DNA of 24,000 nt. Origin: Erysipelotrichaceae bacterium. GTDB taxonomy: Bacteria; Bacillota_I; Bacilli_A; Erysipelotrichales; Erysipelotrichaceae. The stretch covers positions 1 through 24,000 of the forward strand of contig JAUYTU010000030.1 in the NCBI GenBank assembly GCA_030694975.1. The letters are read 5' to 3'. This document shows, in pieces, positions 1 to 9,379 of this stretch. Numbering within the stretch: the stretch's first letter is position 1; each line of letters opens with the position of its first letter. The notes beneath the pieces are model-generated. The model was not told the origin of the DNA, searched no databases, and worked only from the letters and a program-made list of their open reading frames with translations. Both the position numbers and the translations under genes were made by a program.

Positions 1-62
1 CTGCTCCATCAACAGTCTTGTTTTTCTTACTCAAACCTCAAGAATTTCATCCGTTCACACCT

Positions 63-90
63 ACAGCGTCATCAACGCTGTTTATTTTTG
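63..90 (+). terminator. Putative rho-independent terminator for a + strand gene lying off the left edge
   Basis: 7-bp stem acagcgt (63-69) / acgctgt (75-81) with a 5-nt loop, followed by ttatttttg. All three + frames are open across 1-60, so the upstream gene itself cannot be called. Confidence 0.45.
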
Positions 91-96
91 AAGTAT

Positions 97-126
97 TAAA
101 AAGTGCACCCTGTTAAAAGGTGCACT
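97..126 (-). terminator. Rho-independent terminator of the ybaK-like gene
   Basis: 8-bp stem agtgcacc (102-109) / ggtgcact (119-126). Read on the - strand, the hairpin is followed by ttttt aatac. A second perfect 10-bp hairpin (140-149 / 154-163, loop gcaa) sits just upstream and overlaps the stop codon. Confidence 0.6.
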
Positions 127-161
127 TGTCATCAGTCTGAAAAGGTCACGCAAGTGACCTT

Positions 162-705: not shown

Positions 706-736
706 TTGTCTTTGATGGATAAAAATGTGTTAAAAT
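706..736 (+). promoter_or_regulatory. Candidate promoter of the eamA-aldolase-mtnK-mtnA-GNAT operon
   Basis: Extended -10 element TGtTAAAAT (728-736). The -35-like ttgtct (706-711) sits at a long 19-nt spacing. A 6-1-6 palindrome agagtt-t-aactct (745-757) lies just downstream. Confidence 0.3.
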
Positions 737-770: not shown

Positions 771-1655
771 ATGAATCGAGAAATTATGAAGAAATATCTA
801 CCGATTTTATCAGCTGCACTGGCAGCACTGCTTTATGCCTTAAGCACACCTTTTCTAAAGATGACACTCGTCGTTGTTGAACCGGTGTTTTTGGCTGGTT
901 TACTTTACTTCGGGGCGGGCATCGGAATGTTGATTATGTGTATGTTTACTAAGGAAAGTCTGCCGTTTGCGAAAAAGCAGTATCCATATGTGATAGGTAT
1001 GATTCTGTTGGATATCCTAGCACCGATTTTGCTTTTGTATGGATTGCGTTTGAGCGTAGCGGAGAATGCAGCGCTGTTGAATAATTTCGAAATCGTTGCT
1101 ACATCCGTCTTTGCGTTTTTTATCTTTAAAGAGAAAATCAGTATTCGACTGAGATATGCGATCATCATCATCACCATTGCCAGTATTCTTCTGTCTGTTG
1201 AAAATCTTCAGTCAAGTTTAAGTTTCTCATTCGGATCCGTTTTAATTATATTGGCAACCATGGTGTGGGGTTTAGAAAACAATTTTACCCGCAACTTATC
1301 GGATAATTCGCCGATTAAAATTACCGCTATCAAAGGTATATTCTCGGGATTAAGTTCCATCTTACTTGCTTATTTTATTAATCAGATTATCTTTGACGTA
1401 ACTTTGATTTTGCTTTCCATGTTACTCGGATTTGTCACCTACGGACTAAGCATCATGTTTTACATATTTGCACAACGCAGTTTAGGTGCGGCGAAGACCA
1501 GTTCGTTTTACGCATTGGCACCATTTCTGGGTGCCGGTATATCGATCTTGATTTTCAATGATGTTCCGCAACTCAATTTCTATGCAGCGCTGGTTTTGAT
1601 GATTTTGGGAGTTGTATTAATAACGAAAGACACACTTGAAGGAGGGCAATCATGA
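771..1655 (+). CDS. EamA/DMT-superfamily transporter (10-TM drug/metabolite transporter)
   Basis: 294-aa highly hydrophobic ORF with two EamA-like halves. Its stop overlaps the next start (ATGA at 1652-1655). An alternative start is the ATG at 786. Confidence 0.85.
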   Translation: MNREIMKKYLPILSAALAALLYALSTPFLKMTLVVVEPVFLAGLLYFGAGIGMLIMCMFTKESLPFAKKQYPYVIGMILLDILAPILLLYGLRLSVAENAALLNNFEIVATSVFAFFIFKEKISIRLRYAIIIITIASILLSVENLQSSLSFSFGSVLIILATMVWGLENNFTRNLSDNSPIKITAIKGIFSGLSSILLAYFINQIIFDVTLILLSMLLGFVTYGLSIMFYIFAQRSLGAAKTSSFYALAPFLGAGISILIFNDVPQLNFYAALVLMILGVVLITKDTLEGGQS

Positions 1656-2389
1656 ATCAAGAAGAGAAAGCCGCGCGGACGTGGATTTGCGAAGTCGGTC
1701 GCCGCTTGTATTTGCGCAATTATGTCGCGGCCAACGATGGAAATATTTCAGTTCGATTAACGGATGGCACAATCATCGCAACCCCAACCAATGTCTCAAA
1801 GGGCTATATGAATGAAGATATGCTAGTCAAAATGAGCTTGGATGGAAGTTTGATTTCTGAAGGGTTAAGACCTTCTTCAGAAATTAAGATGCATCTGCGT
1901 GTATTTAATGAAAACGAAGAAGTGTTTGGAATTGTCCATGCGCATCCGCCGATTTCAACATCCTTTGCGATTGCGGGTATCCAATTGGATCAACCGACAT
2001 CACCCGAAGCGGTGGTTAATCTCGGAGTGATACCGATAGCCCCCTATGCCACACCGGGGACCGGTGAAGTTGCTGATTCGATAGCAGCTTTTTGTAAGAC
2101 ACATACGGCTGTGTTGCTGGCCAATCATGGCGCGTTGACATGGGGAAGAGATTTGACGGAAGCTTACTTTCGCATGGAATCATTAGAGCATGTGGCCCAT
2201 ATGACGATGATCGCGAACTTTGTGATGGGTAAGGTCAATGTGTTAAGTCAGTCTCAGGTGGATCGACTCTCACGGATGCGTGAGAATATGGATTTGATTC
2301 AAGCCACGATGCCAAAGGGAGCAGAAACGGAGTCAAACTTGAGTGATTTCGGTTCAATGTCAACGTTGAAGAGTGAGGGGAAATTATGA
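1652..2389 (+). CDS. Class II aldolase/adducin-family protein. It is either a 5-(methylthio/deoxy)ribulose-1-phosphate aldolase (Ald2/DrdA-like) or an MtnB-like dehydratase.
   Basis: 245 aa with the class II aldolase metal-site pattern (SSEIKMH, VHAHPP, LANHGALTWG). RBS gaaggaggg precedes it. It is translationally coupled on both sides to eamA and mtnK. Confidence 0.8.
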   Translation: MNQEEKAARTWICEVGRRLYLRNYVAANDGNISVRLTDGTIIATPTNVSKGYMNEDMLVKMSLDGSLISEGLRPSSEIKMHLRVFNENEEVFGIVHAHPPISTSFAIAGIQLDQPTSPEAVVNLGVIPIAPYATPGTGEVADSIAAFCKTHTAVLLANHGALTWGRDLTEAYFRMESLEHVAHMTMIANFVMGKVNVLSQSQVDRLSRMRENMDLIQATMPKGAETESNLSDFGSMSTLKSEGKL

Positions 2390-3609
2390 AATTTACAACG
2401 TATTTTACGATGAATGAAGAAGAGGCCGCAATGTATGCCAGTGAGAAGTTAGGATATCTTTTTGGTGATGAGTTTCATTTAACGTGCAAGGAAATCGGCG
2501 ATGGAAATCTGAACTACATTTTCAGAGTCGTAGATGAGATTTCGGGTCATTCAATCATTATCAAACAATCCGGTCCGGTCGCTCGGATATCGGATGAATT
2601 TAAACTGTCTCCCGATCGCAATCGAATTGAGTATGAAATATTAAAACTTGAAGATAAATTAGCACCCGGATTGGTACCGAAGGTATACGGCTATGACTCC
2701 ATGATGAACTGTACCGTCATGGACGATTTGTCGGATCATCAGATCATGCGAAAAGCGTTGATGGAATTTAAGACTTTTCCGCGTTTTGCCCAAGACATCT
2801 CGGACTTTATGGTCAATACGTTATTATTAACGACAGATGTCGTATTAGAACATAAGGTTAAGAAGGATTTGGTTAAAAATTTCATTAATCCCGAGTTGTG
2901 CGAAATTACGGAAGATTTGGTGTATACCGAACCGTTCAGTGATTATAAGCATCGAAATGATGTTTTTGAACGTAATAAAGATTGGGTCAGCGAACATATT
3001 TACAATTCGGTTGAGTTACGGTTGGAAACAGCCAAACTCAAATTTGAGTTTATGAATCATGCGCAAGCCTTGGTGCATGGCGATTTACATACCGGTTCCA
3101 TCTTTGTCAAAGAAGATTCGACCAAAGTCATCGATCCGGAGTTTGCATTTTTCGGTCCGATTGGCTATGACGTTGGAAATGTCATGGCGAACTTGATCTT
3201 TGCGTGGGTTCACAGTGATGCTCATCAGCAGGGTGAGCACAAACAATGGTTGGAAGATACTATCGTCGAAACGCTTGATCTGTTTATTGAGAAGTTCAGT
3301 CTTGCATGGGATCGCCATGTTTCGGAATTCAGCGCTAAAACACCGGGATTCAAAGAGTACTATTTAGCTACGGTCTTGCGTGATACGGCCGGTGTGACCG
3401 GTTTGGAACTTTGTCGCAGGATCATCGGATTGGCTCATGTGAAGGATATTACTTCGTTAGGTGGTAATGTTCGCGTGCGGGCAGAGCGGATCTGTCTGAG
3501 TGGAGCTATTGATTTTATTCTTAAGCGAGATAAATTTACGTGTGGTGAGGACTATTTGATTACCATGCAAGCAGCTATGTCTAAATTTGCGAGGGAAAAC
3601 GATGAATGA
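2386..3609 (+). CDS. mtnK: S-methyl-5-thioribose kinase (or 5-deoxyribose kinase)
   Basis: 407 aa carrying the hallmark MtnK N-terminal motif [11 protein letters not shown] and the kinase catalytic region [10 protein letters not shown]...[13 protein letters not shown] overlap with the upstream gene. Confidence 0.93.
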
Positions 3610-4669
3610 TGTACTTGATTTTGTGTCAGTTCGTTTGGATGATGATAACAGTGAACTGATCATATTGGATCAAAGCAAGTTGCCCAATGAACTGATTTAT
3701 CATCACTATCATACGAAGGAAGAAATTTTCAAGGCTATCACCGGGTTGGAAGTCCGTGGGGCTCCGGCGATTGGTATCGCAGCGGCCTATGGTTTGTATC
3801 TGGATGCTAAGAAGCAAGAAGATTTAAAATCTGAAGAGTTTATGGCTAATTTTAAACGAACCAAAGACTATTTGGCATCATCACGTCCAACCGCAGTGAA
3901 TTTGTTTTGGGCATTGAATCGGATGGAACGTTGTCTATTCGATCATAAGGAAAAATCAGTGGTGGAGATCATCGATTTATTGAGGATTGAATCTGAAAAT
4001 ATCCGAAGTGAAGATGAAGCGGTGTGCTACTCTATTGGGGAGCATGCCTTGACGTTACTAAAACCAAAAATGGGTTTGCTTACCCATTGCAACGCCGGAA
4101 CACTGGCAACTGCCAAATACGGCACTGCGCTTGCGCCGATGTATTTGGGGCACAAACGGGGGTATGACTTTCGGGTATATGCGGATGAGACCCGGCCGCT
4201 TTTACAAGGTGCCCGTTTGACTGCGTGGGAATTACACGAAGCGGGCATCGATGTTACGTTGATTTGTGATAATATGGCTTCCATTGTTATGAAGAAAGGT
4301 CTAATCGATGCGGTGTTGGTCGGTTGTGATCGGGTTGCGGCCAACGGTGATACGGCCAATAAAATCGGTACTTCGGGAGTGGCTATTTTAGCAAAGCGTT
4401 ACGGCATCCCGTTTTATGTGTGTGCGCCGATGTCCACCCTTGATATTTCGAGAAGTTGTGGTGATGATATTGAAATTGAATTGCGCAAAGGCGAAGAAAT
4501 CACGACGACATGGTATCAGAAGCCGATGGCTCCATCGGGAGTTAAAACTTACAATCCGGCATTTGATGTCACGGATGCGGATTTGATTACGGCAATCATC
4601 ACGGAGAAGGGGATTGTATATCCTCCATATGATCTGAATATAAAAAGACTGTTTGAAGGAGGTCAGTAG
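3602..4669 (+). CDS. mtnA: S-methyl-5-thioribose-1-phosphate isomerase (eIF-2B alpha/beta/delta-like family)
   Basis: MtnA motifs are present ([43 protein letters not shown]). I place the start at the ATG at 3602, with RBS gaggga 5 nt upstream and an 8-nt overlap with the mtnK stop, rather than at the TTG at 3587 given in the ORF track. Confidence 0.93.
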
Positions 4670-5230
4670 GTGAATCACATAGGAACTATGGAACTTTCGA
4701 CGGAGCGGCTGTTATTAAGGAAAATCCGCATCGAAGATGATCGCGATATGTTTGAGCAGTGGGCGAGTGATCCACAAGTTACGAAATATTTAACGTGGGG
4801 TGCGCATCGAAGTATTGAGGATACCCGTCAAATTATTGCATTGTGGCTAAAGGATCAAGACGAACCCCATGTTTACCGTTGGGTAATTGAATTAAAGTCG
4901 ATTGGAAAAGTGATTGGAACCATCGATTTGGTCAGTGTTGACACCCGGCACAGGTGCGGTGTCTTTGGCTATTGTCTTTCCGCCCAATATTGGAACCAGG
5001 GCATTGCAAGTGAAGCACTGAAAGTTATGTTGACATATTTATTTGTTGAGGCAGGTTTTCATCGCATTGAAGCATCACATCTGATTGAAAATCCGGCTTC
5101 CGGCAAGGTTATGCTTAAGTGTGGCATGAAACTGGAGGGGAATAAGCGAAAAAAGTTTTTGGGACATGACGGAGAATTCCATGATTTGCTTGTTTATGGC
5201 CTGTTAGAAGAAGAATTTTTGATTGATTGA
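4670..5230 (+). CDS. GNAT-family N-acetyltransferase (RimJ/RimL-like, Acetyltransf_3 type)
   Basis: 186 aa beginning TERLLLR, with acetyl-CoA-binding region YWNQGIASEA and the later motif HRIEA......N.AS..V..K.G. The GTG start falls directly after the mtnA stop and has a ggagg RBS 7 nt upstream. An alternative start is the ATG at 4688. Confidence 0.85.
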   Translation: MNHIGTMELSTERLLLRKIRIEDDRDMFEQWASDPQVTKYLTWGAHRSIEDTRQIIALWLKDQDEPHVYRWVIELKSIGKVIGTIDLVSVDTRHRCGVFGYCLSAQYWNQGIASEALKVMLTYLFVEAGFHRIEASHLIENPASGKVMLKCGMKLEGNKRKKFLGHDGEFHDLLVYGLLEEEFLID

Positions 5231-5250
5231 CTGCCGAAAGGCAGTTTTTT
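5230..5250 (+). terminator. Rho-independent terminator closing the eamA-to-GNAT operon
   Basis: Stem actgcc / ggcagt with a gaaa tetraloop (5230-5245) followed by a run of T. It lies directly after the stop codon. Confidence 0.8.
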
Positions 5251-5313
5251 AGTGAAAAAGCATTAAATTTGTTAAAAAAGGTAAAAATATTTAATAAATT
5301 GTATGCAATACTA

Positions 5314-5342
5314 TTGTAAACAATAAATAAGCATGATATATT
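5314..5342 (+). promoter_or_regulatory. Candidate sigma-A promoter of the fasciclin gene
   Basis: ttgtaa (5314-5319), 17-nt spacer, tatatt (5337-5342). A short hairpin gtcac-agca-gtgac (5355-5368) lies in the predicted leader. Confidence 0.35.
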
Positions 5343-5381
5343 GTATACAACTTAGTCACAGCAGTGACCCAGGAGGAAATT

Positions 5382-6833
5382 ATGAAGAAGATTATTAGCC
5401 TAATCTTAGCTCTCTTCCTATTTGCAGGCATAAATGTACTCGCAGTAGAACAAGACATTGTAGAAATCGCTTCAGGTAATGAAGACTTCAGTATTTTAGT
5501 AACCGCTTTGCAAGAAGCAGAACTTGTAGAAACACTTAAAGGTACTGGACCTTTCACAGTATTTGCACCGACCGATGCAGCATTCGCAGCTTTACTTGCT
5601 GATTTGGGTGTAAGTGCTGAGTACTTATTAAGTCATCCTCAACTTTCTGAAATTCTTACGTACCATGTAGTAGCTGGTAAAGTAATGAGCACAGACTTGA
5701 CCGATGGCATGACACCGGCAACCGTCAATGGCGAAACGATCACGATCGATTTGGATGGTGGCGTTAAAGTTAACAGCTCCAATGTAACAACCGCTGACAT
5801 CGAAGCTTCCAACGGTGTTATCCACATTATCGACAAAGTATTAATTCCTTCCGATTTTGAACTGTATCCGACCGTTGTAGACATCGCTGTAAACAATACC
5901 GGCTTCTCAACATTGGTAGCCGCATTGACAAAAGCAAATTTAGTAAGCACATTGCAAGGTGCTGGCCCGTTCACAGTATTTGCTCCGACGGATGCCGCAT
6001 TTGCCGCTCTATTAGCTGACTTAGGCGTTAGCGCTGAATACTTATTAAATCACCCTCAACTTTCTGAGATCCTTACGTACCATGTAGTTGCTGGTAAAGT
6101 ATTGAGCACAGATTTAACCGATGGTATGACACCGGCAACTGTCAATGGTGAAACGATTACTGTTGATTTGGATGGTGGCGTCATGATCAATAATGCAAAC
6201 GTAACTGCTGCTGACTTAGAAGCCGGCAATGGCGTTGTCCATGTAATTGACAAAGTGTTAGTACCAGCCGACTTCGTATTATACCCGACCGTTGTAGACA
6301 TCGCACTCAACAACCCTAATTTCTCAATTCTAGTAGCTGCATTGCAAAAAGCCGATTTGGTTGATGCATTGTTAGGTGATGGTCCGTTTACAGTATTCGC
6401 ACCGACCAACGCAGCCTTTGAAGATTTGCTTGAAGCATTAGGTATTACCGCAGAAGAATTACTGGCACAACCGGATTTAGCTAAAGTATTGCTGTTCCAC
6501 GTTGTTTCCGGAAAAGTTATGAGCACAGATTTAAGTGATGGTTTAATGGCTCCGACATTGAATGGCGAATCCGTAACCTTCGATTTGGACGGCGGCGTTA
6601 AAGTTAACGGCGCAATGGTTACAGTTGCTGATCTTGAAGCTGGCAACGGGGTTATCCACGTTATCGATAAAGTACTCATTCCTGCAGATTTCACGTATGT
6701 AGCACAAGAAACAGAAGGCGGATTGCCGAATACAGCTGACAATAACGCACTTAGCTTCGCATTGATCGCTTTGATGGCTGGCTTAGGTTTGGTTGTTGTA
6801 AGTTCGAAAAAACGCTTAGCAAAACAATCGTAA
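5382..6833 (+). CDS. Secreted, sortase-anchored surface protein with three tandem FAS1 (fasciclin) domains
   Basis: The ATG at 5382 has a perfect aggagg RBS 5 nt upstream. The track start at 5364 is a GTG inside the leader. Signal peptide MKKIISLILALFLFAGINVLA. Three FAS1 units carry GPFTVFAPT.AAF and NGV.H.IDKVL motifs. The C-terminal sorting signal is LPNTA (6723-6737), a hydrophobic helix and the tail KKRLAKQS. Confidence 0.9.
   Translation: MKKIISLILALFLFAGINVLAVEQDIVEIASGNEDFSILVTALQEAELVETLKGTGPFTVFAPTDAAFAALLADLGVSAEYLLSHPQLSEILTYHVVAGKVMSTDLTDGMTPATVNGETITIDLDGGVKVNSSNVTTADIEASNGVIHIIDKVLIPSDFELYPTVVDIAVNNTGFSTLVAALTKANLVSTLQGAGPFTVFAPTDAAFAALLADLGVSAEYLLNHPQLSEILTYHVVAGKVLSTDLTDGMTPATVNGETITVDLDGGVMINNANVTAADLEAGNGVVHVIDKVLVPADFVLYPTVVDIALNNPNFSILVAALQKADLVDALLGDGPFTVFAPTNAAFEDLLEALGITAEELLAQPDLAKVLLFHVVSGKVMSTDLSDGLMAPTLNGESVTFDLDGGVKVNGAMVTVADLEAGNGVIHVIDKVLIPADFTYVAQETEGGLPNTADNNALSFALIALMAGLGLVVVSSKKRLAKQS
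5451..6701 (+). repeat. Three in-frame tandem 417-bp (139-codon) repeats encoding the FAS1 domains
   Basis: Units span 5451-5867, 5868-6284 and 6285-6701. Units 1 and 2 are near-identical in protein and differ mostly at synonymous sites. Unit 3 is more diverged. Confidence 0.9.
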
Positions 6834-6838
6834 TTTGA

Positions 6839-6868
6839 CAAAGGGCATCAGACGATGCCCTTTGTTTA
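6839..6868 (+). terminator. Rho-independent terminator of the fasciclin gene
   Basis: Perfect 11-bp stem caaagggcatc (6839-6849) / gatgccctttg (6854-6864) with loop agac, followed by tttaaaa. Confidence 0.85.
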
Positions 6869-6887
6869 AAAGAAAGAAGGTATATAA

Positions 6888-7424
6888 ATGGCTATTGAAA
6901 GCGCAAAGTTTAAATTAATTAAAAAAGAAAAGGATTTTGAAGTCCGGGTGTATGATGAAATTTCTTTAGCCATGAGTAAGGAGAGCGATTTTCGCGGATA
7001 CAGCGGATTCAATGAAGCCTTTGATTACATCAGCGGATCTAACGATCAAAACCGTAAGATATCGATGACAACTCCGGTCATTAACGAGTTGGATCAAGAT
7101 TCGATGACGATGGCGTTTGTGATGCCTTCGGAAATACCGTTTGAAAGTCTGCCTAAACCGAAGAGTCAACGGCTTTCGATGATAAAGAAGGAGAATATGG
7201 TTTTTGCCTCCATTCGTTTTTCCGGAACGGTCTGTCCGACCCTACTAGCAAAAAAGAAAAAAGAACTCACGGAATGGATGTCTGCCAATCATTTGATCCC
7301 AGGATCAGTTGTCTGGTTGGCACGGTACAATCCACCGTTTATTCCTGGTTTTCTAAAGCATAATGAAGTGCTTATTTCGATTGAAAATAGTACGATTTTA
7401 ACAGATATTTCCGATCGTATTTAA
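6888..7424 (+). CDS. SOUL heme-binding-protein family protein
   Basis: 178 aa with the family pattern: FEVRVY near the N-terminus, ISMTTPV, MAFVMP, FSG, and ARYNPPF...HNEVLI near the C-terminus. RBS gaagg. The last 53 nt overlap the convergent gene. Confidence 0.8.
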   Translation: MAIESAKFKLIKKEKDFEVRVYDEISLAMSKESDFRGYSGFNEAFDYISGSNDQNRKISMTTPVINELDQDSMTMAFVMPSEIPFESLPKPKSQRLSMIKKENMVFASIRFSGTVCPTLLAKKKKELTEWMSANHLIPGSVVWLARYNPPFIPGFLKHNEVLISIENSTILTDISDRI

Positions 7425-7800
7425 CAGATAAGACTTGTAAATAAGATTTTAGCTCAGATAAAGACTCACTCCCGGACGAATAATCCTGGAGTTTTTTTTC
7501 AAAACTCGCTTTTTCATCGTCGCTTGCCAACTTTTTAAAATAACCCCAGACATGTTGCAGTGCATTGACGGCATTTCCTGTGTTCTCTTCTATAGTAAGT
7601 GCGAGTTCAATCAATCGTAAAAACTCATCTCTGGAATACCCGACTTTCACGGTTAACAACTGACGGATTTCGTTGTATAGATTAGGGCTTTTCTCAAGCA
7701 CTACATATTTAAGTTTGCTCCACTCTTGTTCTATTTTTTTAATGGGGACATTTTTCTTTTGAAGATTTGCATGCACTTGATTCAATATTTCGTTATTCAT
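7372..7800 (-). CDS. DUF1722 (YbgA-like) domain protein
   Basis: Shows the DUF1722 pattern: NALQHVWGYFKK, EK..F...L..Y..G, and YL..S.YF near the C-terminus. The start is uncertain. I prefer the ATG at 7800 (MNNEIL...). The track ORF extends to the ATG at 7851, which has no visible RBS. Confidence 0.65.
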   Translation of the reverse strand: MNNEILNQVHANLQKKNVPIKKIEQEWSKLKYVVLEKSPNLYNEIRQLLTVKVGYSRDEFLRLIELALTIEENTGNAVNALQHVWGYFKKLASDDEKASFEKKLQDYSSGSESLSELKSYLQVLSVKYDRKYLLKSYYFQSK

Positions 7801-7894
7801 ATAAACTCGCTTTCGGTAAGAGATTTCTCTTTCGATTATCATAACATACATTTGAATGTTTGTAAGTCAGTAAAAACCTCAGATTGACAAGGTG

Positions 7895-7903
7895 TGATAT
7901 AAT
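7895..7903 (+). promoter_or_regulatory. Extended -10 promoter element upstream of the helicase gene
   Basis: TGaTATAAT at 7895-7903. A perfect ttgaca at 7884-7889 is only 8 nt upstream and is therefore mis-spaced for a -35. Confidence 0.4.
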
Positions 7904-7924
7904 ACGTGAGTAAATGAAGAAAGT

Positions 7925-9379
7925 ATGAGAAACCGTATGAAATTAACCTTTGAAAGCTTTGGATTAAGTGAGCAAATCCAACGTTCTATAGAACTGCTCG
8001 GATATCAACAACCAACGGAAGTGCAATCAGTCCTTATTGAATCCATGATTGAAGGAAATGACGTTGTAATTCAATCACAGACGGGAAGCGGTAAAACGGC
8101 AGCATTTGCGATTCCGATCTGCGATAATATTGATTTTGATCAAAACAAACCCCAAGCACTGATCATTGCTCCTACTCGCGAACTCGCTTTACAAATTAAG
8201 GAAGATGTTTTTCATATCGGCCGCTTCAAACGTGTTAAAGTTTCGGTACTTTTCGGTAAGTTCCCTTATGAAGTACAAGTCAAGGAGTTAAAACAAAAAA
8301 CGCACATCGTCGTTGGGACTCCCGGACGTGTGCTCGATCATATTAAACGTGGTACATTGGATGTTTCTGAAATTAAGTATTTGATTATTGATGAAGCCGA
8401 TGAAATGTTTAAGTTGGGCTTTCTGATCGAAATGAATCAAATTATTAAGAAATTACCCGTGAAGCGACAGACCGTTCTTCTTTCCGCAACCATTCCGGAT
8501 CAGATTCAGGATTTGATAGCTTTTGCGGTTAGAAATCCGAAATTTATCAAGATTGATGAGGAGAGCAATGTTCTCGATCGTATCACTCAATATAAATTAT
8601 CGGTGGTAGAACCAGCCAAGCTGCGTTTGACCCGTGAGATACTTATGACCTTACAGCCGGATAGCTGTATGATTTTCTGTAATCTTAAGGTAACCGTTGA
8701 TGATGTCTATGATTATTTCAAAGATATGAAATTTCCGATTCAGCGTTTGCATGGCGGTATGGAACAAAATGACCGTACGCAGATCATCAAGGACTTTAAA
8801 CAAGGCGGATTTCGGTTTTTAGTGGCAACCGATGTTGCGGCGCGGGGGTTGGATATTGATCAGGTGTCATTGATTATCAATTATGATATTCCGTTAGAAG
8901 CTGAAATCTATGTTCATCGAATCGGCCGAACAGGACGTTTTGATCAAATGGGCAAAGCGATTACGTTCTACACATCGAATCAAGGTCGTTTCTTGCGTAA
9001 CATCGAGGACTTTACGGAAGTACATATGGAAAATTTGGTGTTGCCGGATAAAGAGACGTTACAAAATGCACACATTGACAGTGCCCGTCAAATTCGTGAG
9101 AAGAAGATTGTTAAAAAAGTCAAAGGTGAGCAGCTCAATGAGGGTATCACAGCTCTTCAGATTCGGGCAGGGAAGCAATCCAAGATTCGCCCGACCGATA
9201 TCGTCGGTGCGATTTGTTCGATTGAAGGTGTGAGTGCACTGGATATCGGTGTAATCAATATCGGCGAGTTGTTCAGTGATGTAGAAATACTCAATGAAAA
9301 AGGGAATTTGGTTCTTGAACAATTACAACTTCTTCCGATGAAAGGGAAGATGAGAAAAGTAGTGAAAATAAAGAAATAG
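7925..9379 (+). CDS. dbpA: DEAD-box ATP-dependent RNA helicase with a C-terminal DbpA-type RNA-binding domain (DbpA/YxiN-like)
   Basis: Q motif (F..F.L......GY..PT.VQ), motif I SQTGSGKT, motif II DEAD, SAT, HRIGRTGR, and a C-terminal segment IRPTDIVGAI......IG.I typical of the DbpA domain. An alternative start is the ATG at 7937. Confidence 0.92.
   Translation: MRNRMKLTFESFGLSEQIQRSIELLGYQQPTEVQSVLIESMIEGNDVVIQSQTGSGKTAAFAIPICDNIDFDQNKPQALIIAPTRELALQIKEDVFHIGRFKRVKVSVLFGKFPYEVQVKELKQKTHIVVGTPGRVLDHIKRGTLDVSEIKYLIIDEADEMFKLGFLIEMNQIIKKLPVKRQTVLLSATIPDQIQDLIAFAVRNPKFIKIDEESNVLDRITQYKLSVVEPAKLRLTREILMTLQPDSCMIFCNLKVTVDDVYDYFKDMKFPIQRLHGGMEQNDRTQIIKDFKQGGFRFLVATDVAARGLDIDQVSLIINYDIPLEAEIYVHRIGRTGRFDQMGKAITFYTSNQGRFLRNIEDFTEVHMENLVLPDKETLQNAHIDSARQIREKKIVKKVKGEQLNEGITALQIRAGKQSKIRPTDIVGAICSIEGVSALDIGVINIGELFSDVEILNEKGNLVLEQLQLLPMKGKMRKVVKIKK

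What the first reader, a model, noticed from the sequence alone, without database searches (positions are those of the whole stretch)
771..5250. Five-gene translationally coupled operon that looks like a DHAP-shunt / 5-deoxyribose-disposal module rather than canonical methionine salvage
Order and coupling: EamA transporter, class II aldolase, MtnK and MtnA are linked by overlapping stops and starts (ATGA at 1652 and 2386, an 8-nt overlap at 3602). The GNAT start abuts the mtnA stop at 4670. The operon ends at one strong terminator.

Pathway logic: a kinase, an isomerase and a class II aldolase without mtnW/X/D or mtnC/D/E nearby is the signature of the DHAP shunt (MtnK-MtnA-Ald2 of Rhodospirillum rubrum and ExPEC E. 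coli) and of 5-deoxyribose disposal (DrdK-DrdI-DrdA of Bacillus thuringiensis). That route cleaves 5-methylthio- or 5-deoxy-ribulose-1-P into DHAP plus an aldehyde.

The transporter and acetyltransferase additions are not part of the described core pathway.
Basis: partly seen in the sequence, partly recalled or inferred. Interest (0 to 1): 0.6.

Follow-up and report, generated by a model that had tools for sequence, protein, structure and literature searches.

The report
DHAP-shunt cassette inside a transporter-acetyltransferase pair
This is a three-gene kinase-isomerase-aldolase route that most likely breaks the sugar left-overs of S-adenosylmethionine chemistry (5-deoxyribose, methylthioribose) into DHAP plus an aldehyde; the pathway is already known, but here it uses an untested aldolase lineage and sits between a transporter gene and an acetyltransferase gene that also occur as a pair without it.

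Summary
Five co-directional genes (EamA 771-1655, class II aldolase 1652-2389, MtnK 2386-3609, MtnA 3602-4669, GNAT 4670-5230) are joined by ATGA, ATGA and ATGAATGA overlaps and a 0-nt gap, and they end at one hairpin terminator.

The DHAP-shunt reading is supported.
- **Genome content:** the 99.6%-complete genome has MtnN, SpeE and 16 radical-SAM genes. It has no MtnB, RuBisCO-like MtnW, MtnC or MtnD.
- **Aldolase placement:** the aldolase is not an MtnB. It is also not an orthologue of the tested shunt aldolases (B. cereus-group DrdA, E. coli Ald2). It belongs to a separate, well-supported clade. Members of that clade lie beside MtnA, with or without MtnK, in many Bacillota. Its sister branch sits in fucose/rhamnose and microcompartment loci.

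What changes is the "five-gene operon". A 100%-complete congener has EamA and GNAT directly coupled by an ATGA overlap and has no aldolase, MtnK or MtnA anywhere. The shunt is therefore a three-gene cassette, gained or lost as a unit within an EamA-GNAT pair. A role for those two genes in the shunt is unproven.

A transporter in a shunt operon is already described for E. coli. This scan has noted MtnK/MtnA/aldolase (DHAP-shunt-type) clusters in at least 129 other genomes. Verdict: new member of a known kind, modest interest.

The parts
728..736 (+). Possible extended -10 promoter element (TGtTAAAAT) in the 138-nt leader. No riboswitch is present.
   Evidence: Read from the sequence. It is not among the two-hexamer pattern hits. 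Rfam finds no family anywhere in the window at gathering score. Inferred, not tested.
771..1655 (+). EamA/DMT-family membrane transporter, 294 aa (the start may be ATG 786).
   Evidence: PF00892, 95 bits, two stretches. Its stop overlaps the aldolase ATG. In the congener G005 it is coupled directly to the GNAT gene.
1652..2389 (+). Class II (metal-dependent) aldolase, 245 aa. Predicted 5-deoxyribulose-1-P / 5-methylthioribulose-1-P aldolase of an uncharacterised lineage.
   Evidence: PF00596, 161 bits. No NCBIfam cut-off is reached: OtnC 149/250, DrdA-type NF005302 99/264, MtnB 72/137, FucA 77/400. His96, His98, His159 and Glu77 are conserved and the MtnB-specific insert is absent. It falls in a clade supported at 96 SH-aLRT.
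2386..3609 (+). 5-methylthioribose / 5-deoxyribose kinase (MtnK/DrdK type), 407 aa.
   Evidence: TIGR01767, 411 bits against a cut-off of 275. 302 bits to B. subtilis MtnK (2olc), with the [15 protein letters not shown] and IDPEFAF motifs aligned. It lies in kinase clade II together with all aldolase-linked kinases.
3602..4669 (+). 5-methylthioribose-1-P / 5-deoxyribose-1-P isomerase (MtnA/DrdI type), 355 aa.
   Evidence: TIGR00512, 418 bits against a cut-off of 279. 335-338 bits to 2yrf and 1t9k, with the CNAG Cys and the DNMA Asp aligned.
4670..5230 (+). GNAT N-acetyltransferase (RimJ/RimL/SpeG-like), 186 aa, substrate unknown.
   Evidence: PF13302, 117 bits. Only weak matches to RimJ, RimL and SpeG. 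In G005 its ATG overlaps the EamA stop.
5229..5252 (+). Intrinsic terminator that closes the transcription unit.
   Evidence: 7-bp stem, 4-nt loop and T6 tail. Folding energy -13.9 kcal/mol, z = -3.6.

Best explanation
Genes 1652-4669 are a three-gene DHAP-shunt cassette.

Proposed route:
1. MtnN, encoded elsewhere in the genome, cleaves 5'-deoxyadenosine (from 16 radical-SAM enzymes) and 5'-methylthioadenosine (from spermidine synthase) to 5-deoxyribose and 5-methylthioribose.
2. MtnK phosphorylates C1.
3. MtnA isomerises the product to the 1-phospho-ribulose.
4. The class II aldolase cleaves it to DHAP plus acetaldehyde or 2-(methylthio)acetaldehyde.

The aldolase is a non-orthologous stand-in for DrdA/Ald2. 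It was recruited from the lineage that also supplies fuculose/rhamnulose-1-P aldolases of fucose/rhamnose and microcompartment loci.

The cassette lies exactly between an EamA transporter gene and a GNAT gene, so all five genes are co-transcribed and translationally coupled. EamA-GNAT is also a unit of its own, and whether it serves the shunt (uptake, export or acetylation of something) is open.

Shown here: gene order, couplings, family memberships, clade placement, genome-wide absences, and the presence/absence polymorphism.

Inferred: substrates, aldol cleavage and co-transcription.
For: - **Family scores and motifs** of MtnK and MtnA.
- **Metal site of the aldolase:** the class II His/His/His/Glu residues are present.
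- **Own genome, 99.6% complete:** no RuBisCO-like protein, no ARD/MtnD and no MtnC. The only MtnB-model hit is this aldolase, at 67 bits against a cut-off of 137. MtnN, SpeE and 16 radical-SAM genes are present.
- **Aldolase tree:** the aldolase lies in a 96-supported clade apart from MtnB, OtnC and FucA/Ald2/DrdA.
- **Neighbours of the closest homologues:** 52 of the 80 loci holding the closest homologues carry MtnA and/or MtnK within 8 kb.
- **Sister subclade:** its neighbours are BMC shell proteins, PduCDE, FGGY kinases, FucI, RhaA and DeoR regulators. That context requires a deoxy-ketose-1-P aldolase.
- **Kinase tree:** the kinase groups with all aldolase-linked kinases, including the DrdK-type kinase next to a DrdA orthologue.
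- **Published pathway:** the pathway and its promiscuity for both substrates are in PMC6079011 and PMC10986504.
- **Cassette behaviour:** G005 has EamA-GNAT joined by ATGA and no aldolase, MtnK or MtnA.
Against: - No member of this aldolase clade that I could identify has been assayed.
- Its best curated-model match is the decarboxylase OtnC, below the cut-off.
- The FucA Tyr113 position is not conserved; the clade has an invariant Pro-Glu there.
- Kinase and isomerase of the same clade also sit next to MtnWXBD clusters in some Bacillales. They do not discriminate between the two pathways on their own.
- Absences rest on a draft of 42 contigs.
- Co-transcription is inferred from overlaps and a single terminator.
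Confidence: 0.78

Rival explanations
1. The cluster is mainly a nutritional route for exogenous 5'-deoxynucleosides or 5-deoxypentoses, with EamA as the importer. This would match ExPEC E. coli, where the shunt supports growth and not detoxification or sulfur salvage.
For: The E. coli operon is mtnK-mtnA-ald2 plus a GRP-family (DMT superfamily) transporter (PMC12632272), and it enables growth on 5-deoxyribose (PMC10986504). Homologous clusters in Neobacillus carry ABC and MFS sugar transporters. The EamA stop overlaps the aldolase start.
Against: EamA persists, coupled to the GNAT, in a congener with no shunt genes. It has no detectable similarity to the E. coli transporter. Its weak curated hit is to a carboxylate/amino acid/amine carrier family. 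No other of the 80 related loci outside the genus has an EamA homologue nearby.
Confidence: 0.25
2. The aldolase-family protein performs other chemistry on the ribulose-1-phosphate (decarboxylase, epimerase or dehydratase, as in OtnC, AraD or MtnB), so the cluster feeds an undescribed pathway and not the DHAP shunt.
For: The best NCBIfam and PDB matches are OtnC-type (149 bits; 6vop at 99.6 bits) and not DrdA (70.7 bits). In the tree the clade groups loosely (support 91) with OtnC and MtnB and not with FucA-like enzymes. An invariant Pro-Glu replaces the FucA Tyr113 region.
Against: All scores are far below family cut-offs. OtnC and MtnB sit on very long branches. The MtnB insert is absent. 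The sister subclade sits with FucI, RhaA, FGGY kinases and diol-dehydratase/BMC genes, where only aldol cleavage to lactaldehyde makes pathway sense. The genome has no enzymes to take a dehydration product further.
Confidence: 0.1
3. It is canonical methionine salvage, with the 245-aa protein acting as the MtnB dehydratase.
For: MtnK and MtnA pass the curated methionine-salvage models. Kinases of the same clade serve MtnWXBD clusters in some Bacillales.
Against: The MtnB model scores 67-72 bits against a cut-off of 137. MtnB forms its own 100-supported clade with a diagnostic insert. No MtnW-type RuBisCO-like protein, MtnC or MtnD is found in a 99.6%-complete genome. No S-box riboswitch is present.
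Confidence: 0.03

Closest known systems
DrdK-DrdI-DrdA 5-deoxyribose disposal cluster of Bacillus thuringiensis (PMC6079011; DrdA structure 6btd)
   Same: Kinase-isomerase-class II aldolase trio in one operon, in a Bacillota genome. The window kinase is 60% and the isomerase 55% identical to the DrdK/DrdI-type proteins of a B. cereus-group genome. The kinase falls in the same clade.
   Different: The aldolase is only 27% identical to the DrdA orthologue. It scores 99 bits against the 264 cut-off of the NCBIfam model that the DrdA orthologue matches at 407 bits, and it sits in another clade. The gene order differs (aldolase first). This genome has no separate methionine-salvage cluster.
mtnK-mtnA-ald2-transporter operon of ExPEC E. 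coli ATCC 25922 (PMC10986504, PMC12632272)
   Same: Nucleosidase elsewhere in the genome, plus kinase, isomerase and aldolase in one operon that also encodes a DMT-superfamily transporter.
   Different: Sequence identity is 38-40% for kinase and isomerase and 29% for the aldolase. E. coli Ald2 is a close FucA paralogue (273 bits to 1fua). The transporters are unrelated at sequence level. No MtnR-type regulator is nearby here.
MtnP-MtnA-Ald2 DHAP shunt of Rhodospirillum rubrum (North et al. 2017, as described in PMC6302742 and PMC10986504)
   Same: Same chemistry after the first step. The organism likewise lacks the universal methionine-salvage route.
   Different: R. rubrum uses a phosphorylase in place of nucleosidase plus kinase. 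Its Ald2 is reported to be very similar to the E. coli one (PMC6302742), so it belongs to the FucA-like lineage. I could not fetch its sequence to test this.
Fuculose/rhamnulose-1-phosphate aldolases of fucose/rhamnose and microcompartment (Pdu/PVM-like) loci
   Same: Nearest relatives of the window aldolase outside the MtnA-linked group: 45-50% identity, sister subclade with support 99, and BMC/PduCDE/FucI/RhaA neighbours.
   Different: The window protein lacks the C-terminal amphipathic tail that many of these carry. The genome has no BMC shell gene. The neighbours here are MtnK and MtnA, not FucI/RhaA and FGGY kinases.

Membership tests
DHAP shunt / 5-deoxyribose disposal module | Kinase of the 5-methylthioribose kinase family (or an MtnP phosphorylase) | tested here: met
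   TIGR01767, 411 bits against a cut-off of 275. The G-loop, HGD and DxE motifs align with 2olc.
DHAP shunt / 5-deoxyribose disposal module | MtnA-family ribose-1-P to ribulose-1-P isomerase in the same cluster | tested here: met
   TIGR00512, 418 bits against a cut-off of 279. The catalytic Cys (CNAG) and Asp (DNMA) align with 2yrf. The residue roles are recalled from the B. subtilis MtnA literature.
DHAP shunt / 5-deoxyribose disposal module | Class II metal-dependent aldolase in the same cluster | tested here: met
   PF00596, 161 bits. His96/His98/His159 and Glu77 are conserved.
DHAP shunt / 5-deoxyribose disposal module | The aldolase is an orthologue of a biochemically tested shunt aldolase (DrdA or Ald2) | tested here: not met
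   27% identity to the DrdA orthologue and 29% to E. coli Ald2. It lies in a separate clade. NF005302 scores 99 bits against a cut-off of 264.
DHAP shunt / 5-deoxyribose disposal module | Nucleosidase (MtnN/Pfs) that supplies the free sugars | tested here: met
   TIGR01704, 192 bits against a cut-off of 74, at G000:C24:254723-255397.
DHAP shunt / 5-deoxyribose disposal module | Aldol cleavage of 5-deoxy- or 5-methylthio-ribulose-1-P to DHAP plus an aldehyde | not testable with these tools
   Needs enzyme assays.
Canonical methionine salvage pathway | MtnB dehydratase | tested here: not met
   The only genomic hit to TIGR03328 is the window aldolase, at 67 bits against a cut-off of 137. It is outside the MtnB clade and lacks the MtnB insert.
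Canonical methionine salvage pathway | Downstream enzymes MtnW (RuBisCO-like) or MtnC, and MtnD | tested here: not met
   PF00016, TIGR01691 and PF03079 give no match in the 99.6%-complete genome. MtnX and MtnE were not searched.
OtnC (3-oxo-tetronate 4-phosphate decarboxylase) | Score above the NCBIfam equivalog cut-off | tested here: not met
   NF043034 scores 149 bits against a cut-off of 250. E. coli OtnC falls outside the clade.
L-fuculose-1-phosphate aldolase FucA | Score above the TIGR01086 cut-off and the conserved Tyr113 region | tested here: not met
   77 bits against a cut-off of 400. Pro-Glu replaces the His/Ser-Tyr motif.
Microcompartment-targeted aldolase | C-terminal amphipathic targeting helix and BMC shell genes in the genome | tested here: not met
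   The tail is absent from the window protein. PF00936 gives no match in the genome.

The most novel reading that the evidence does not exclude
EamA and GNAT may be a working extension of the shunt and not bystanders. For example, the transporter could import 5-deoxy or 5-methylthio sugars or nucleosides, or export the aldehyde-derived product. The acetyltransferase could modify a by-product or an amino-analogue. The precise nesting of the cassette at their ATGA junction would then reflect selection for co-expression. The aldolase lineage would be a third, independently recruited DHAP-shunt aldolase whose specificity differs from DrdA/Ald2.
Probability: 0.15. Interest if true: 0.5.

Novelty: new member of a known kind. 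Interest (0 to 1): 0.3.

Why it matters
It adds a clean genomic example of an organism that relies on the DHAP shunt alone, with no methionine-salvage back end, to deal with both SAM by-products.

It shows that the aldolase step has been filled from a lineage other than the three enzymes tested so far. Annotation by homology to DrdA/Ald2 will therefore miss such clusters. Current curated models leave this clade unnamed, and the DrdA orthologue itself hits a model named 'L-fuculose-phosphate aldolase'.

It also shows that kinase/isomerase clade membership does not tell methionine salvage from the shunt.

The presence/absence pair within one genus (the window genome against G005) offers a natural comparison for testing what the shunt contributes.

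Tried and rejected
- **AlphaFold2 model of the aldolase.** Built from the 16-row alignment A1, it came out poor (mean pLDDT 57). I ran no fold search on it and draw nothing from it.
- **blastn of the cassette against E. coli genomes.** It found nothing. I reached the E. coli operon through a protein search of the ATCC 25922 record instead.
- **R. rubrum Ald2 sequence.** Its likeness to E. coli Ald2 rests on PMC6302742 only.
- **Literature searches for Rru_A0359 and for aldolase names.** They gave nothing useful. The supplementary trees of PMC6079011 are images.
- **Junction repeat as a recombination scar.** The two cassette junctions share TTGAAGGAGG..(A/G)TGAATCA (1636-1648 and 4653-4665). 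I considered this a recombination scar. The shared part is the ribosome-binding site plus the start context, MtnA C-termini elsewhere end similarly, and relatives show it less clearly, so I do not rely on it.
- **Gain or loss of the cassette in G005.** An EamA tree gives an unresolved three-way split.
- **EamA-GNAT adjacency outside the genus.** It was not found in 60 sampled genera of the family.
- **MtnP near MtnA-only loci.** None lies within two genes.


Full report
**1. Observation**

The + strand carries five ORFs at 771-1655, 1652-2389, 2386-3609, 3587/3602-4669 and 4670-5230. Direct reading confirms each junction:
- ATGA at 1652, between EamA and the aldolase.
- ATGA at 2386, between the aldolase and MtnK.
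- ATGAATGA at 3602-3609, between MtnK and MtnA.
- TAG at 4667-4669 followed at once by GTG 4670, the GNAT start, with AGGAGG 7 nt upstream.

Gene calls in relatives give 355 aa for MtnA and 186 aa for the GNAT, which fits starts at 3602 and 4670.

Pfam and NCBIfam name the products EamA transporter, class II aldolase, MtnK (411 bits, cut-off 275), MtnA (418 bits, cut-off 279) and an Acetyltransf_3 GNAT.

The only convincing terminator is the hairpin at 5229-5246 plus T6. Its folding energy is -13.9 kcal/mol, z = -3.6. Rfam finds no riboswitch in the window, so the S-box control typical of Bacillus mtnK/mtnA is missing.

**2. Genome context**

The window is contig C2 of a 2.19-Mb, 42-contig assembly rated 99.6% complete.

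Not found in the genome:
- RuBisCO-like protein, PF00016.
- ARD/MtnD.
- MtnC.
- Any MtnB. The one hit to the MtnB model is the window aldolase itself, at 67 bits against a cut-off of 137.

Present in the genome:
- MtnN.
- A spermidine-synthase family gene.
- 16 radical-SAM domains.

Both 5'-methylthioadenosine and 5'-deoxyadenosine should therefore be made and cleaved to the free sugars, and the universal methionine-salvage back end is absent.

**3. The aldolase**

It reaches no curated NCBIfam cut-off:

| Model | Bits | Cut-off |
|---|---|---|
| OtnC decarboxylase | 149 | 250 |
| DrdA-type NF005302 | 99 | 264 |
| MtnB | 72 | 137 |
| FucA | 77 | 400 |

In the PDB it is nearest to 6vop/6voq (about 99 bits). 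DrdA (6btd) scores 70.7 bits and FucA about 65.

Reference sequences were obtained as follows:
- E. coli ATCC 25922 Ald2, FucA, OtnC and the AraD-type epimerases.
- A DrdA orthologue from a B. cereus-group genome, 465.6 bits to 6btd over all 213 residues.
- Three MtnB proteins from Bacillales methionine-salvage clusters, all above cut-off.

A 94-sequence maximum-likelihood tree gives these results:
- The window protein lies in a clade of 82 sequences with SH-aLRT support 96.
- That clade excludes MtnB (its own clade, support 100), OtnC, and the FucA/Ald2/DrdA group.
- The clade, OtnC and MtnB join at support 91, but on very long branches. I place no weight on that join.

The alignment shows:
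- The three metal histidines (His96, His98, His159) and the catalytic Glu77 are conserved.
- The roughly 10-residue insert after the HxH motif that marks MtnB is absent.
- An invariant Pro-Glu (118-119) stands where FucA-like enzymes have the Tyr113 motif.

**4. What the clade does, judged from neighbours**

A scan of one genome per species found at least 593 relatives, and the 80 best were fetched with flanks. The 80 loci divide as follows:

| Neighbour within 8 kb | Loci |
|---|---|
| MtnK and MtnA | 23 |
| MtnA only | 26 |
| MtnK only | 3 |
| Neither | 28 |

- They span Bacillaceae, Paenibacillus, Vagococcus, Clostridia, Lachnospiraceae, Christensenella, Selenomonas and a few non-Bacillota MAGs.
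- Of the 28 without either neighbour, 22 form a separate subclade with support 99.
- The neighbours of those 28 loci include BMC shell proteins, EutN, the three diol-dehydratase subunits, aldehyde dehydrogenases, FGGY kinases, L-fucose isomerase, L-rhamnose isomerase and DeoR regulators. That is the setting of fuculose/rhamnulose-1-P aldolases.
- The lineage as a whole is therefore best read as deoxy-ketose-1-phosphate aldolases. The MtnA-linked branch is the one that serves the DHAP shunt.
- Many homologues end in an amphipathic tail of the IESIVRKVTEEVL type. The window protein does not, and the genome has no BMC shell gene.

**5. Kinase and isomerase**

- The window kinase is 60% identical to the DrdK-type kinase next to the DrdA orthologue.
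- It is 55-64% identical to kinases next to window-type aldolases.
- It is 38-43% identical to clade I methionine-salvage kinases and to E. coli MtnK.
- In a 47-sequence tree it lies in a clade with support 100 that holds all aldolase-linked kinases.
- That clade also holds eight kinases that sit beside MtnWXBD clusters. The kinase clade therefore does not by itself separate shunt from salvage.
- Catalytic motifs of both enzymes align with solved B. subtilis structures.

**6. The five-gene unit is composite**

- Within the genus, five of seven other genomes have the aldolase.
- G003 and G002 match the window continuously from about 781 to 8000.
- G005, rated 100% complete, matches 140-1582 and 4700-7998 only about 100 nt apart.
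- Its sequence shows EamA (308 aa) and the GNAT (186 aa) joined by an ATGA overlap.
- G005 has no aldolase of this type, no MtnK and no MtnA anywhere.
- The three shunt genes are therefore present or absent as one block, exactly at the EamA-GNAT junction.
- An EamA tree leaves G005, G002 and the rest as an unresolved three-way split, so gain and loss are equally possible.
- Outside the genus, EamA and GNAT orthologues were not found in the same genomes among 60 sampled genera.
- Bona fide MtnA is rare in the family: two other genomes of the 60 sampled.
- Gene GC (0.42-0.46, against a genome value of 0.41) gives no clear sign of foreign origin.

**7. Comparison with what is published**

- The pathway was established in B. 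thuringiensis (PMC6079011). That paper also noted sugar transporters in some clusters and the promiscuity of the enzymes for methylthioribose.
- It was established in R. rubrum and ExPEC E. coli as well (PMC10986504).
- The E. coli operon is mtnK-mtnA-ald2 plus a transporter (PMC12632272). In the ATCC 25922 record that gene is annotated as a GRP-family sugar transporter.
- A transporter in the operon is therefore not new.
- A GNAT in this position was not seen in any other of the 80 loci. No paper I read mentions one.
- Earlier notes of this scan list MtnK/MtnA/aldolase (DHAP-shunt-type) clusters in at least 129 genomes, some wired to microcompartments. This agrees with the clade picture above but is not independent evidence.

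**8. Verdict**

- The DHAP-shunt reading is well supported for the three central genes (about 0.78).
- Canonical methionine salvage is excluded as far as sequence allows.
- EamA and the GNAT are co-expressed neighbours whose link to the pathway is unproven, and the G005 arrangement weakens it.
- This is a new member of a known kind. One feature deserves a bench test: an uncharacterised aldolase lineage fills the last step.

Noticed in passing
window 1-140: The first ~140 nt of the contig recur at 98-100% identity at or near the ends of at least five other contigs of the same assembly (C42, C41, C32, C24, C18), and at 92% in the congener G001. This looks like a multi-copy repeat that breaks the assembly.
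   Followed up: no
L144:5058-6541 (G005:C12), minus strand: The congener keeps EamA and GNAT as an ATGA-coupled pair, next to the same fasciclin/SOUL genes, with no shunt genes. This is a natural presence/absence pair for the cassette.
   Followed up: yes
L022, L023, L033, L037, L076, L094, L095 (aldolase C-termini); A1 columns ~250-292: Many homologous aldolases carry a C-terminal amphipathic tail (IESIVRKVTEEVL-like) that resembles a microcompartment targeting peptide. These include MtnK/MtnA-linked ones in Bacillaceae whose fetched flanks show no shell genes (for example L004).
   Followed up: partly
L124-L126, L128, L130, L131, L133, L135: In several Bacillales genomes, kinase/isomerase pairs of the 'DrdK/DrdI-like' clade lie beside complete MtnW-X-B-D clusters. 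The published split into Drd and Mtn paralogues does not hold across the order.
   Followed up: partly
L114:5251-5892:-: The DrdA orthologue (465.6 bits to 6btd over all 213 residues) matches NCBIfam equivalog NF005302 at 407 bits. That model's product name is 'L-fuculose-phosphate aldolase', a likely source of misannotation.
   Followed up: no
G009:C22:19473-21098: Another genus of the same family has an MtnA-like gene (213 bits, below the cut-off) immediately upstream of a distant class II aldolase (30% identical to the window's). This may be a different isomerase-aldolase pair.
   Followed up: no
window 771-790: The EamA start is ambiguous. Alignments to relatives begin at residue 6, so ATG 786 may be the true start.
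   Followed up: no
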